DNA of 15,233 bases, taken from positions 1-15,233 of IMG/VR virus record IMGVR_UViG_2585427789_000028; one strand, written 5' to 3'. This DNA is from a virus (Duplodnaviria; Heunggongvirae; Uroviricota; Caudoviricetes). A program made the position numbers and the translations under genes. The notes below the pieces were generated by a model that had not been told where the DNA came from, made no database searches, and worked only from the letters and a program-made list of their open reading frames with translations. Positions 3,268 through 4,292 of the stretch are shown in pieces (within the stretch, counting starts at the first letter, position 1; the number at the start of each line of letters is the position of its first letter).

Positions 3268-4179
3268 ATGGAATCTAATGCACTAAAAAAAGCACGACTA
3301 TTTATAAATGACATAAAATATTGTGTTGAAAACTTTAATATCGATTCAACTTTATATACCGCTTTCAAGCCAAGTGATATTGGTGTTAAAGGAGATGAAA
3401 GCAATACAATATATGTTGCTGACGGTAAGCTTCCGGAAAAACTGATAATTGCTTTTGGAGAAAAGGCAAAAGACAGTAAAATATTTATTGGAAAAAATGT
3501 AAAATGCAGGGGATCGAGAATTGTAATAACTCACGGTGAAAGCCTTTGTTACATCGGAAATAACTCACAACTAAATAATGTAACTATGCATATATGGTGC
3601 AAATGGGATTTTGTAGTGGTTGGAGAAGGTGTATCAGTTACCTCAACAAGTAATTGGACTACTGGAATAAACCCTGGCAATCCTTGTAACGGCATTATTA
3701 TTGGTGATCACTGCCTTATGAGCCAAGAAATATCTATTAGACCTGCAGATGGACACCAAATTATCGAACTCACCACGCGAAAAGTAGTCAACGCTGCAAC
3801 ATCACCTATTATAATCGAACCATATTGCTGGATCGGACAGCGCACAGCAATACTAAAAAATGTAAGAATTGGTGCATGCTCCATCGTTTCACTTGGTGCT
3901 GTAGTTACAAAATCATGTAAAAAATTCAGCGCGCTAAGTGGCGTACCAGCAAAAGCAAGATGCATTGAAGGAAAAATGTGGCTAAGAAACAATGGGGAAG
4001 AAGCCAAGAGAATAATGCTTATGTATGAAAAAAGATTTGCAGGCACAGCAGCACAGCAGCACAGCAGCACAGCAGCACAGCAGCACAGCAGCACAGCAGC
4101 ACAGCAGCACAGCAGCACAGCAGCACAGCAGCACAGCAGCACAGCAGCACAGCAGCACAGCAGCACAGCAGCACTGTGA
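3268..4179 (+). CDS. Hexapeptide-repeat (left-handed beta-helix) acyl/acetyltransferase with a repetitive AAQQHSST C-terminal tail
   Basis: Translation shows classic hexapeptide periodicity (IIGDHCLMSQEISIRPADGHQII, IIIEPYCWIGQRTAILKNVRIGACSIVSLGAVVTKS). The gene is visibly AT-rich compared with its neighbours. The last 44 codons are the octanucleotide array. Stop TGA at 4177-4179. Confidence 0.75.
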   Translation: MESNALKKARLFINDIKYCVENFNIDSTLYTAFKPSDIGVKGDESNTIYVADGKLPEKLIIAFGEKAKDSKIFIGKNVKCRGSRIVITHGESLCYIGNNSQLNNVTMHIWCKWDFVVVGEGVSVTSTSNWTTGINPGNPCNGIIIGDHCLMSQEISIRPADGHQIIELTTRKVVNAATSPIIIEPYCWIGQRTAILKNVRIGACSIVSLGAVVTKSCKKFSALSGVPAKARCIEGKMWLRNNGEEAKRIMLMYEKRFAGTAAQQHSSTAAQQHSSTAAQQHSSTAAQQHSSTAAQQHSSTAAL

Positions 4180-4292
4180 TAAGCACAGCAGCACAGCAGC
4201 ACAGCAGCACAGCAGCACAGCAGCACAGCAGCACAGCAGCACAGCAGCACAGCAGCACAGCAGCACAGCAGCACAGCAGCACAGCAGCACAG
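4043..4292 (+). repeat. Octanucleotide tandem repeat (GCACAGCA)n in two blocks: 4043-4174 (16.5 units) and 4183-4292 (about 13.7 units), separated by TGTGATAA
   Basis: Counted directly in the sequence. Units are essentially perfect. Both blocks end in GCAC followed by (T/A)GTGATA. No stop codon in any of the three plus-strand frames across the array. Confidence 0.95.

What the first reader, a model, noticed from the sequence alone, without database searches (positions are those of the whole stretch)
4043..4292. Octanucleotide repeat array (GCACAGCA, about 30 copies) at the 3' end of a prophage acetyltransferase: candidate NeuO-like contingency locus
Two near-perfect blocks of an 8-bp unit (16.5 and about 13.7 copies), each ending in the same GCAC-(T/A)GTGATA flank, form the last 44 codons of the acetyltransferase and its 3' region. 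Because the unit is 8 bp, each copy gained or lost shifts the frame. All three frames across the array are stop-free and encode permutations of AAQQHSST. The three frames terminate at TGA 4177, TGA 4293 or TAA 4298, so slipped-strand mispairing would toggle between a tail of about 44 residues and a tail of about 85 residues rather than cause simple truncation. The known precedent is NeuO, the E. coli K1 polysialic-acid O-acetyltransferase carried by prophage CUS-3, which varies through heptanucleotide repeats at its 5' end. Here the repeat is 8 bp and at the 3' end, an arrangement I do not recognise as described.
Basis: partly seen in the sequence, partly recalled or inferred. Interest (0 to 1): 0.8.

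Follow-up and report, generated by a model that had tools for sequence, protein, structure and literature searches.

The report
Hypervariable 8-bp repeat tailing capsule acetyltransferase
A real, fast-mutating 8-base repeat lengthens and re-frames the tail of a prophage enzyme related to NeuO, and this enzyme is the best candidate yet for the unidentified gene that turns the E. coli K22 capsule into its acetylated form, K18.

Summary
Window 4043-4292 holds (GCACAGCA)x16 + GCAC, an 8-nt interruption (TGTGATAA), then (GCACAGCA)x13 + GCACAG. It forms the 3' end of a 303-aa ORF (3268-4179) on a degraded prophage between yfgI and guaA.

The array is real and hypervariable. Near-identical loci in complete E. 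coli genomes carry 16, 22, 42, 43, 50 and 52 uninterrupted copies, while 5.3 kb of flank differs by 0-2 nt. The commonest allele has only a proto-repeat and gives a 267-aa protein.

The enzyme's closest solved relatives are NeuO and OatWY, with the catalytic His and Trp conserved. Distant homologues sit next to TagF-like polymerases, mostly inside capsule loci. In 5,426 complete genomes the gene occurs only in strains with the K18_K22 kps locus (11 of 19). A 2026 paper states that the K18 acetyltransferase must lie outside kps and is unidentified.

Unlike NeuO, the repeat is at the 3' end, so the catalytic domain is never truncated. Slippage changes the length of a disordered AAQQHSST tail. 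It also rotates between endings that stop before the terminator and endings that run through it.

The two-block structure and the exact copy numbers come from a 2014 draft assembly and may be artefacts. Whether the repeat has any functional effect is untested.

The parts
3168..3196 (+). Promoter-like site TTGCCT-17-TATAGT upstream of the acetyltransferase. Together with its own terminator, this gives the layout of a prophage 'moron' gene.
   Evidence: Consensus scan only. Function not shown.
3257..3262 (+). Shine-Dalgarno-like AAGGTG, 5 nt before the ATG at 3268.
   Evidence: Read directly from the sequence.
3268..4041 (+). Catalytic domain (aa 1-258) of a NeuO/OatWY-like left-handed beta-helix O-acetyltransferase. 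H163 and W188 align with the catalytic His147 and Trp171 of NeuO.
   Evidence: PDB sequence search. AlphaFold2 pLDDT above 90 over aa 1-258. Foldseek top hits 3JQY and 2WLG. H163 and W188 invariant in 43 homologues. NeuO residues from PMC3046976.
4043..4174 (+). Repeat block 1: (GCACAGCA)x16 + GCAC. It encodes the AAQQHSST-periodic C-terminal tail (aa 259-303).
   Evidence: Tail pLDDT 45-53, predicted disordered.
4175..4182 (+). Interruption TGTGATAA, holding the actual stop TGA 4177-4179 followed by TAA 4180-4182. It resembles a duplicated copy of the 3' flank (GTGATA) with an A-to-T change. It is unique to this assembly.
   Evidence: Absent from AST205, which is otherwise identical over the region.
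4183..4292 (+). Repeat block 2: (GCACAGCA)x13 + GCACAG. In this allele it lies in the 3' untranslated region.
4293..4300 (+). 3' flank TGATATAA, providing the stops for two of the three frames (TGA 4293-4295 and TAA 4298-4300). The ancestral flank in other strains is CGAAATAA, which gives a stop in only one frame.
4307..4331 (.). Hairpin terminator shared by the convergent acetyltransferase and tail-fibre genes.
   Evidence: 10-bp stem with 5 G-C pairs, followed by a T-rich tail.
4360..4362 (+). TAG stop of the third frame (tail ending ...HSDIIIIMAVMRGHYILFIIALTY). It lies 29 nt beyond the terminator stem.
   Evidence: (SW070919 allele).
4351..7425 (-). Convergent 1024-aa tail fibre/tailspike with a C-terminal S74 intramolecular chaperone domain. 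Its receptor-binding region is found only in genomes with the K18_K22 kps locus.
1290..3087 (-). Prophage lysis cassette: DUF2514 protein in the spanin position, GH19 endolysin and two holins. It abuts the host genes yfgH and yfgI (1-1072).

Best explanation
The feature is a slippage-prone octanucleotide repeat that has grown out of a proto-repeat (GCACAGCA-GACAGCA-GCACAGC) at the natural stop codon of a prophage accessory ('moron') gene.

The gene encodes a cytoplasmic, acetyl-CoA-dependent capsule O-acetyltransferase of the NeuO/OatWY kind. Its most likely substrate is the ribose-ribitol-phosphate capsule made by the K18_K22 kps locus, which would make it the enzyme that turns K22 into K18.

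The unit is 8 bp and contains no T. Gaining or losing a unit therefore never truncates the enzyme. It has two effects:
(a) it lengthens or shortens a disordered AAQQHSST tail by 2.67 residues per unit;
(b) it rotates between three C-terminal endings.

With the flank in this window, two endings stop before the terminator (...TAAQ* and ...STVI*). The third reads 22 hydrophobic codons through the terminator hairpin. With the ancestral flank, two of three frames read through.

I infer that read-through frames are poorly expressed, through stop-less terminated mRNA, tmRNA tagging or an aggregation-prone tail. On that view the array would act as a leaky, graded switch of capsule O-acetylation rather than a clean ON/OFF switch.

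Shown here: the array and its hypervariability, the enzyme family, the link to the host capsule locus, and the consequences for reading frame.
Inferred: the substrate, and any effect on enzyme level or activity.
For: Hypervariability:
- Copy numbers are 16, 22, 42, 43, 50 and 52 in complete genomes, against a proto-repeat in EC0026B.
- Flanks totalling 5.3 kb differ by 0-2 nt among AST205, MLI114, MLI121, E100341 and the window.
- MLI114 and MLI121 differ by 14 of 2,520 cgMLST alleles, were assembled with Trycycler from Nanopore plus Illumina reads, and carry 43 versus 42 copies.
- Short-read contigs break inside the array.

Enzyme family:
- NeuO 3JQY is the best PDB sequence hit (E 2e-18), followed among capsule enzymes by OatWY.
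- Foldseek top hits are NeuO and OatWY, the latter with TM 0.83.
- The catalytic His and Trp are invariant in 43 homologues.

Substrate:
- Homologues in Aeromonas, Pantoea, Castellaniella and others lie next to TagF-like Glyphos_transf genes in 5 of 6 contexts examined. Four of these are inside ABC-transporter capsule loci.
- All 11 complete genomes with the gene are among the 19 of 5,426 that carry one kps region 2 at 99% identity or more.
- That region compares with K100 (strain EC958) at 96.8, 98.9 and about 80-82% amino-acid identity. The published K18_K22 versus K100 values are 97.1, 98.9 and 82.1%.
- PMC13171606 states that K18 is acetylated K22, that the kps clusters are identical, and that the acetyltransferase is probably outside the locus.
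- AST19 has the same kps locus but an empty yfgI|guaA site.

Frames: computed. Terminator. Disordered tail. Parallel gene layout in CUS-3.
Against: - There are no expression, biochemical or serological data.
- The commonest allele (267 aa, 71 contigs) has no array, so the tail is not needed for function.
- The prophage here is a deletion remnant.
- The tail has no basic residues, unlike the RLKTQDS heptad of NeuO, so a role in binding an anionic polymer is not obvious.
- Alleles from long-read genomes show no preference for a frame: 22, 42, 43, 50 and 52 cover all three.
- The terminator's T-tract is weak, so the stop-less-mRNA argument may not hold.
- The link to K18_K22 could partly reflect shared ancestry or phage host range rather than enzyme specificity.
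- The K18a, K18ab and K22 reference genomes could not be examined.
Confidence: 0.5

Rival explanations
1. The array is a neutral, tolerated microsatellite. It expanded by slippage at the dispensable C-terminal end of a gene on a decaying prophage. It is hypervariable but has no effect on acetylation in any frame or at any length.
For: - The catalytic domain is untouched in every allele.
- Homologues have short, unconserved C-terminal ends of varying length after the YE-RFA motif.
- The commonest allele lacks the array.
- No frame is preferred among alleles from long-read genomes.
- The stop-free frames follow from a T-free unit.
- The prophage is defective.
Against: - Perfect arrays of 42-52 units are exceptional for E. 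coli (my background knowledge, not tested here).
- The array has arisen and persisted on both flank types and with both tail-fibre types.
- One or two frames add 22-60 mostly hydrophobic residues that run through the terminator, which is unlikely to be harmless.
- The C-to-T change that places TGA directly after the array looks like repair of such a read-through frame.
- The only E. coli precedent in this enzyme family is a functional contingency locus.
Confidence: 0.35
2. The array is a true NeuO-like ON/OFF contingency locus. Unit changes switch capsule O-acetylation fully on and off at high frequency.
For: - With the ancestral CGAAATAA flank, only one frame in three stops before the terminator, the same 1-in-3 arithmetic as neuO.
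- Both kinds of frame (stopping before the terminator and reading through it) occur in natural isolates: PAR and SW070919 are read-through, while MLI114, MLI121 and E100341 stop early.
- The gene belongs to the NeuO family and has the same prophage context.
Against: - The full catalytic domain is translated in every frame.
- With the flank in this window, two of three frames end cleanly.
- There is no evidence that read-through abolishes activity.
- The terminator is weak.
Confidence: 0.1
3. The array, or at least its two-block structure and copy number in this window, is an assembly artefact.
For: - The source is a draft WGS contig.
- Draft-derived alleles with 7, 10, 13 and 16 units have periodic lengths that fall within k+7 to k+14 of the SPAdes default k values 55, 77, 99 and 127. 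This is the pattern expected if arrays are collapsed during assembly. This window's block 2 (13 units) fits; block 1 (132 nt) does not.
- The interruption is found in no other locus.
- Short-read contigs break in the array.
Against: - The array itself is present, perfect and uninterrupted at 42-52 copies in long-read genomes, so it is not an artefact.
- The interruption needs reads that join GTGATA to the repeat. It also has a simple biological origin, namely tandem duplication of the array end plus flank.
Confidence: 0.04

Closest known systems
NeuO, the polysialic-acid O-acetyltransferase of E. coli K1 prophage CUS-3 (heptanucleotide poly-psi repeat)
   Same: - Same enzyme family and fold, with NeuO the best PDB hit and the catalytic His and Trp conserved.
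- Carried by a prophage directly beside the tailspike/tail-fibre gene.
- A non-triplet tandem repeat inside the coding sequence, where three units encode one peptide repeat (7 bp x 3 = heptad; here 8 bp x 3 = octad).
- Comparable copy-number ranges: 2-93 for neuO against roughly 1-52 here.
- The repeat-encoded peptide is disordered in both.
   Different: - Only about 30-36% identity over part of the protein.
- The repeat is 8 bp rather than 7 bp, and lies at the 3' end rather than 2 nt after the start codon.
- Off-frames do not truncate the enzyme.
- The repeat peptide is uncharged (AAQQHSST) rather than basic (RLKTQDS).
- The hosts carry the K18_K22 kps locus, not K1.
- A different phage type and a different insertion site (yfgI|guaA; the argW site of CUS-3 is from my memory).
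OatWY, the capsule O-acetyltransferase of Neisseria meningitidis serogroups W and Y
   Same: Best structural superposition with the model (2WLG, TM 0.83, rmsd 2.7 A). It is also a capsule-specific left-handed beta-helix O-acetyltransferase.
   Different: OatWY is encoded in the chromosomal capsule locus, carries no coding tandem repeat, and acts on a sialic-acid-containing substrate.
Helicobacter pylori alpha-1,3-fucosyltransferases FutA/FutB with a C-terminal heptad-repeat 'enzymatic ruler' (from my memory of the literature, not checked here)
   Same: A glycan-modifying enzyme whose C-terminal repeat region varies in copy number between strains by slippage, changing a tail rather than the catalytic domain.
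   Different: The unit there is 21 bp and in frame, so no frameshifts occur. The gene is chromosomal, not on a prophage. The repeats form a structured stalk with a demonstrated effect on product length.
Simple-sequence contingency loci in surface-glycan genes of Haemophilus and Neisseria, for example 5' tetranucleotide tracts in lic1A, lgtC and oafA (from my memory, not checked here)
   Same: Slippage-prone non-triplet repeats inside genes that modify surface polysaccharides.
   Different: Those tracts lie at the 5' end or in promoters and give clean ON/OFF switching. Octanucleotide units at the 3' end that only alter the C-terminus are not a described class, to my knowledge.

Membership tests
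NeuO-type prophage capsule O-acetyltransferase | Left-handed beta-helix (hexapeptide) acyltransferase fold resembling NeuO/OatWY | tested here: met
   3JQY E 2e-18. AlphaFold2 pLDDT above 90 for aa 1-258. Foldseek ranks 1-8 are NeuO and OatWY.
NeuO-type prophage capsule O-acetyltransferase | Catalytic His and Trp (His119/Trp143, numbered His147/Trp171 in 3JQY) | tested here: met
   They align with H163 and W188. Both are invariant in 43 homologues.
NeuO-type prophage capsule O-acetyltransferase | Encoded on a prophage next to the tailspike gene, outside the kps locus | tested here: met
   Lysis cassette, tail fibre, replication genes and integrase surround the gene. CUS-3 layout. The kps locus lies about 470 kb away in AST205.
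NeuO-type prophage capsule O-acetyltransferase | Non-triplet tandem repeat in the coding sequence, polymorphic in copy number | tested here: met
NeuO-type prophage capsule O-acetyltransferase | Repeat at the 5' end, so that only copy numbers divisible by three give full-length enzyme (ON/OFF) | tested here: not met
   The array begins at codon 259, after the whole catalytic domain. All frames translate aa 1-258.
NeuO-type prophage capsule O-acetyltransferase | Acts on alpha-2,8 polysialic acid (K1 hosts) | tested here: not met
   All host genomes carry a kps region 2 with a CDP-ribitol-synthase-like gene and a TagF-like polymerase, not neu genes. The substrate itself was not assayed.
NeuO-type prophage capsule O-acetyltransferase | Repeat-encoded peptide raises catalytic efficiency in proportion to its length | not testable with these tools
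   This needs enzyme kinetics on recoded alleles.
Simple-sequence contingency locus | Repeat tract within a gene (or its promoter) affecting a surface structure | tested here: met
   The surface-structure role is inferred from homology and gene context.
Simple-sequence contingency locus | High-frequency, reversible length change within a clonal population | tested here: inconclusive
   Copy number is 42 versus 43 in two isolates 14 cgMLST alleles apart. It ranges from 16 to 52 on flanks differing by 0-2 nt. There are no single-colony or read-level data. Five laboratory derivatives of EC0026B are identical, but they carry only the proto-repeat.
Simple-sequence contingency locus | Length change switches expression or phenotype | not testable with these tools
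   Only the predicted protein ends are available.
K18-specific capsule O-acetyltransferase (gene not yet identified in the literature) | Located outside kps and found in strains with the K18_K22 kps locus | tested here: met
   11 of 11 carriers are among the 19 of 5,426 genomes with that region 2. Locus identity rests. The expectation comes from PMC13171606.
K18-specific capsule O-acetyltransferase (gene not yet identified in the literature) | Present and active in serologically K18 strains, absent or inactive in K22 strains | not testable with these tools
   The reference genomes GCA_977946865, GCA_977946875 and GCA_977947955 are not in any collection available here. AST19 shows that K18_K22-locus strains without the gene exist.

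The most novel reading that the evidence does not exclude
This gene is the missing acetyltransferase that distinguishes E. coli capsule serotype K18 from K22. On this reading, its 3' octanucleotide repeat makes the K18/K22 difference a mobile, hypermutable form variation. It would be a second prophage-borne contingency locus in E. coli. It would also work by a new mechanism: frame-dependent read-through of the terminator and variation in tail length, rather than truncation from the 5' end.
Probability: 0.25. Interest if true: 0.85.

Novelty: new variant of a known kind. Interest (0 to 1): 0.72.

Why it matters
E. coli has very few simple-sequence contingency loci, and neuO is the textbook example (my background knowledge). 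A second NeuO-family prophage gene with its own non-triplet repeat suggests that phages recurrently equip capsule-modifying genes with mutable tracts. The 3' position shows a different way such a tract can act.

It also offers a concrete, quickly testable candidate for an open problem stated in a 2026 capsule-typing paper. K18 and K22 have identical kps clusters and cannot be told apart from genome sequence (PMC13171606). If this gene explains the difference, in silico K-typing could resolve K18 from K22.

There is also a practical warning. Short-read assemblies collapse or break at this array, so its length and frame must be read from long reads.

Tried and rejected
- **Hairpin-driven instability.** The array folded as single-stranded DNA is no more stable than shuffled sequence (z = -0.35). 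Plain misalignment of direct repeats is sufficient.
- **Frame preference as evidence of selection.** An apparent excess of copy numbers equal to 1 mod 3 (1, 7, 10, 16, 22; 7, 16, 43, 52) disappears on inspection. Values of 7, 10, 13 and 16 match the lengths expected for arrays collapsed at k = 55, 77, 99 and 127, and all of these happen to equal 1 mod 3.
- **Antisense ORFs across the array** (3708-4274, 3982-4329 and 4019-4282, minus strand). Rejected as by-products of a complement that has no A.
- **DNA match to deposited phages.** None found. By protein, only NeuO of CUS-3 and a few distant hexapeptide genes matched.
- **Exact-pattern scans.**
  - The pattern anchored on the 5' flank found nothing in the genome and metagenome collections.
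  - The pattern anchored on the 3' flank found nothing in the genome collection.
  - In the metagenome collection it found one contig that starts inside the array.
  - A 32-mer of the repeat found one viral contig from the same locus, truncated in the array, plus three unrelated low-complexity hits.
- **Literature.** No paper contains the 16-mer. None links an octanucleotide repeat to an E. coli acetyltransferase. None identifies the K18 acetyltransferase.
- **Endosialidase tail fibre.** Only the S74 chaperone domain matches, and no endosialidase catalytic domains were found.
- **Tail fibre versus a capsule-locus protein.** The tail fibre shows no significant similarity to the 301-aa protein encoded beside the Pantoea homologue.
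Full report
**1. The observation**

Tandem Repeats Finder reports one strong array at 4043-4292: period 8, 31.8 copies, 95% matches, score 451, unit GCACAGCA. Exact counting gives the following layout:
- 16 perfect units at 4043-4170, plus GCAC at 4171-4174;
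- an 8-nt interruption, TGTGATAA, at 4175-4182;
- 13 perfect units at 4183-4286, plus GCACAG at 4287-4292;
- then TGATATAA.

ORF 3268-4179 encodes 303 aa and stops at TGA 4177. The other two frames cross the interruption and stop at TGA 4293 or TAA 4298. The stop-free frames are not informative, because the unit contains no T and its complement contains no A.

**2. The array is real and hypervariable, but this window's version is uncertain**

*Copy numbers in other genomes.* Eleven of 5,426 complete E. coli genomes carry the same locus at 99% identity. After the same 5' anchor, their arrays are uninterrupted:

| Strain | Units |
|---|---|
| AST205 | 16 |
| PAR | 22 |
| MLI121 | 42 |
| MLI114 | 43 |
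| SW070919 | 50 |
| E100341 | 52 |

Five laboratory derivatives of EC0026B have only a proto-repeat, GCACAGCA-GACAGCA-GCACAGC, which gives a 267-aa protein ending ...AGTADSSTAK.

*Mutation rate relative to the flanks.* Outside the array, 5.3 kb of flank differs by 0-2 nt among AST205, MLI114, MLI121, E100341 and the window. The array therefore changes far faster than point substitutions accumulate.

MLI114 and MLI121 are near-clonal, 14 of 2,520 cgMLST alleles apart, and came from two people. They were assembled by Trycycler from Nanopore reads and polished with Illumina reads (PMC10198576). They differ by exactly one unit.

*Other alleles.* The 90%-identity protein cluster holds 125 distinct E. 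coli sequences. The commonest is a 267-aa allele without an array, seen on 71 contigs. Tails among the other listed members correspond to 1, 6, 7, 10, 11, 16 and 17 units.

*Caveats on draft-derived counts.*
- The window is contig JOSP01000064.1 of draft assembly GCA_000713785.1.
- Draft-derived counts of 7, 10, 13 and 16 units have periodic lengths that fall within k+7 to k+14 for k = 55, 77, 99 and 127. I read these as collapsed arrays. This is my inference.
- AST205's count of 16 fits the same pattern and is equally suspect.
- Two short-read contigs simply break inside the array.
- The interruption occurs in no other locus.

The interruption could be a real tandem duplication of the array end plus the GTGATA flank, or it could be an assembly chimera.

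**3. What the gene is**

*Fold and catalytic residues.*
- Pfam gives only a sub-threshold Hexapep hit.
- The best solved relative by sequence is NeuO (3JQY, E 2e-18 over aa 66-242), with OatWY also matching.
- An AlphaFold2 model built from 43 homologues has pLDDT above 90 for aa 1-258 and about 45-53 for the repeat tail.
- Its best Foldseek matches are NeuO and OatWY (2WLG, TM 0.83).
- The catalytic His147 and Trp171 of NeuO (PMC3046976) align with H163 and W188. Both are invariant across the family.
- The catalytic part is nearly identical between strains, and most differences are synonymous.

*Gene layout.* The gene has a promoter-like site, a good ribosome-binding site and its own hairpin terminator. 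It is transcribed against the flow of the neighbouring late genes, which is the layout of a prophage accessory gene.

*Prophage context.* Around it lie a lysis cassette, a convergent 1024-aa tail fibre with an S74 chaperone domain, lambda-like replication genes, a repressor, RecT and an integrase. The element sits between yfgI and guaA, and strain AST19 has this site empty.

In the window the prophage is a remnant. The tail-fibre gene is fused at about 7504 to a truncated P gene. An intact-phage contig diverges at exactly that point.

**4. Likely substrate**

*Context of distant homologues.* Homologues at 45-61% identity were examined in six genomic contexts.
- In five, a TagF-like CDP-glycerol/ribitol phosphotransferase gene lies within one or two genes.
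- Four of those five are ABC-transporter capsule loci with KpsM/T, KpsC/S and KpsD homologues.

*The host capsule locus.* The host AST205 has a group 2 kps locus. Its region 2 consists of a hypothetical gene, a cytidylyltransferase/SDR gene that looks like a CDP-ribitol synthase, and a 1107-aa TagF-like gene.
- That region 2 occurs at 99% identity or more in only 19 of 5,426 genomes.
- All 11 carriers of the acetyltransferase are among those 19.
- Another 113 genomes have a version at 88% identity.
- EC958, typed K100/KL100 (bioRxiv 10.64898/2025.12.15.689991), has the 88% version.
- The three AST205 proteins are 96.8%, 98.9% and about 80-82% identical to those of EC958.
- The kTYPr supplement gives 97.1%, 98.9% and 82.1% for K18_K22 versus K100.

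The hosts therefore have the K18_K22 genotype.

[quoted passage not shown] No paper in the library identifies it. This prophage gene is the obvious candidate.

*Tail fibres.* Two different tail-fibre receptor-binding regions (1024-aa and 923-aa proteins) are each linked to this gene. Each is found only in K18_K22 genomes. That is what a capsule-specific phage would show, and it mirrors CUS-3, where neuO lies beside the endosialidase tailspike gene.

*Weakness.* The association could partly reflect shared ancestry or phage host range. The serological reference genomes could not be searched.

**5. How the repeat would act**

Three units make 24 nt, which encode one AAQQHSST octad, so every frame encodes the same periodic peptide. 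The array begins at codon 259. That is where homologues end with short, unconserved tails, and where the ancestral 267-aa protein had nine more residues. No frame touches the catalytic domain, so this is not a NeuO-type truncation switch.

What changes is tail length and the C-terminal ending:

| 3' flank | n = 0 mod 3 | n = 1 mod 3 | n = 2 mod 3 |
|---|---|---|---|
| TGATATAA (this window) | ...STVI*, TAA five nt further on | ...TAAQ*, TGA directly after the array | ...HSDIIIIMAVMRGHYILFIIALTY*, stop at 4360-4362, 29 nt beyond the terminator stem (4307-4331) |
| CGAAATAA (ancestral; PAR, EC0026B) | stops before the terminator | reads through, up to 60 extra residues | reads through |

The C-to-T change that creates the TGA looks like a repair of a read-through frame.

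I infer that read-through frames are poorly expressed. Possible reasons are terminated mRNA that lacks a stop codon, leading to tmRNA tagging, or a hydrophobic tail. The array would then give a leaky, graded switch.

Both kinds of frame occur in natural long-read genomes. PAR (22 units) and SW070919 (50 units) read through. MLI121, MLI114 and E100341 stop before the terminator.

Against a functional role:
- the commonest allele has no array;
- the tail carries no basic residues;
- no frame is preferred among long-read alleles;
- the terminator's T-tract is weak.

The neutral-microsatellite reading is therefore a serious rival, which I put at 0.35.

The array has no special hairpin propensity, so simple slipped-strand misalignment of direct repeats is the likely mutational mechanism.

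**6. Comparison with what is known**

The locus shares with neuO the enzyme family, the catalytic residues, prophage carriage beside the tailspike gene, and a polymorphic non-triplet coding repeat.

It fails two defining features of NeuO. The repeat is not at the 5' end and does not give truncation-based ON/OFF switching. The hosts do not make polysialic acid.

It also differs in unit length (8 bp against 7 bp) and in the chemistry of the repeat peptide. I file it as a new variant of a known kind: a NeuO-family prophage capsule acetyltransferase with a 3' octanucleotide repeat.

The nearest analogy for a variable C-terminal repeat tail in a glycan-modifying enzyme is the heptad 'ruler' of H. 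pylori FutA/FutB. This comparison is from memory. That repeat is in frame.

**7. Verdict**

The most valuable outcome is the testable proposal that this gene underlies the K18/K22 distinction, with the repeat adding hypermutable variation on top of it.

My confidence in each part:

| Claim | Confidence |
|---|---|
| The array is real and hypervariable | about 0.95 |
| The gene is a capsule O-acetyltransferase of the NeuO/OatWY kind | about 0.85 |
| It is the K18 enzyme | about 0.6 |
| The repeat has a phenotypic effect | about 0.4 |

Noticed in passing
window 8362-8498: Three overlapping tandem-repeat families with periods of 12, 24 and 18 bp (for example ATCCCGTTTTTGGGATCATTCAAC x2.6) lie inside the replication-initiator ORF 7983-8798(-), which has DnaT and HTH_36 domains. 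They look like origin iterons of a lambdoid replication module.
   Followed up: no
window about 7425-7504 (and L012 10882-10960): The prophage is a deletion remnant. The tail-fibre start (7425) is joined at about 7504 to a C-terminally truncated lambda-P-like gene (7480-8001, minus strand). An intact-phage contig (IMGVR_UViG_3300045988_024696) diverges from the window exactly there and carries large virion genes instead.
   Followed up: partly
window 4351-7425(-) versus L006 4239-7010(-): Two tail fibres (1024 aa and 923 aa) share aa 1-209 at 95% identity and the S74 chaperone domain at 31%, but have unrelated central receptor-binding regions. Each is linked to the same acetyltransferase. Each occurs only in genomes with the K18_K22 kps locus (5 and 6 of 5,426).
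   Followed up: partly
L019 7776-8474; L017 7788-8444: In Aeromonas caviae and in one metagenomic context, a GDSL/SGNH hydrolase gene overlaps the 3' end of the homologous acetyltransferase gene. This may be an acetyltransferase-esterase pair. L017 also has a second hexapeptide gene 700 bp downstream.
   Followed up: no
L031 8001-13026: In Enterobacterales bacterium CwR94, the homologue sits with a TagF-like gene, a GT2 glycosyltransferase and FliB inside a flagellar gene cluster. This suggests a role in modifying a flagellar glycan rather than a capsule.
   Followed up: no
L025 (AST19) 22836-25045; L001 (AST205) 2899-3418: AST19 has the same K18_K22 kps locus and the same yfgH frameshift as AST205, but an empty yfgI|guaA site. 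The prophage is therefore polymorphic within what looks like one lineage. yfgH is intact in MLI114, MLI121, PAR and SW070919.
   Followed up: partly
L024 (EC958) 14233-17555: In the K100 reference strain EC958, the TagF-like polymerase gene is annotated as two ORFs (913 aa and 181 aa), where AST205 has one of 1107 aa. This may be a frameshift or an annotation split in a strain reported as K100.
   Followed up: no
L004 (SW070919) 6946-7457: An IS3-family element interrupts the 5' part of the tail-fibre gene in SW070919, shortening it to 825 aa. This is further decay of the prophage while the acetyltransferase is retained.
   Followed up: no
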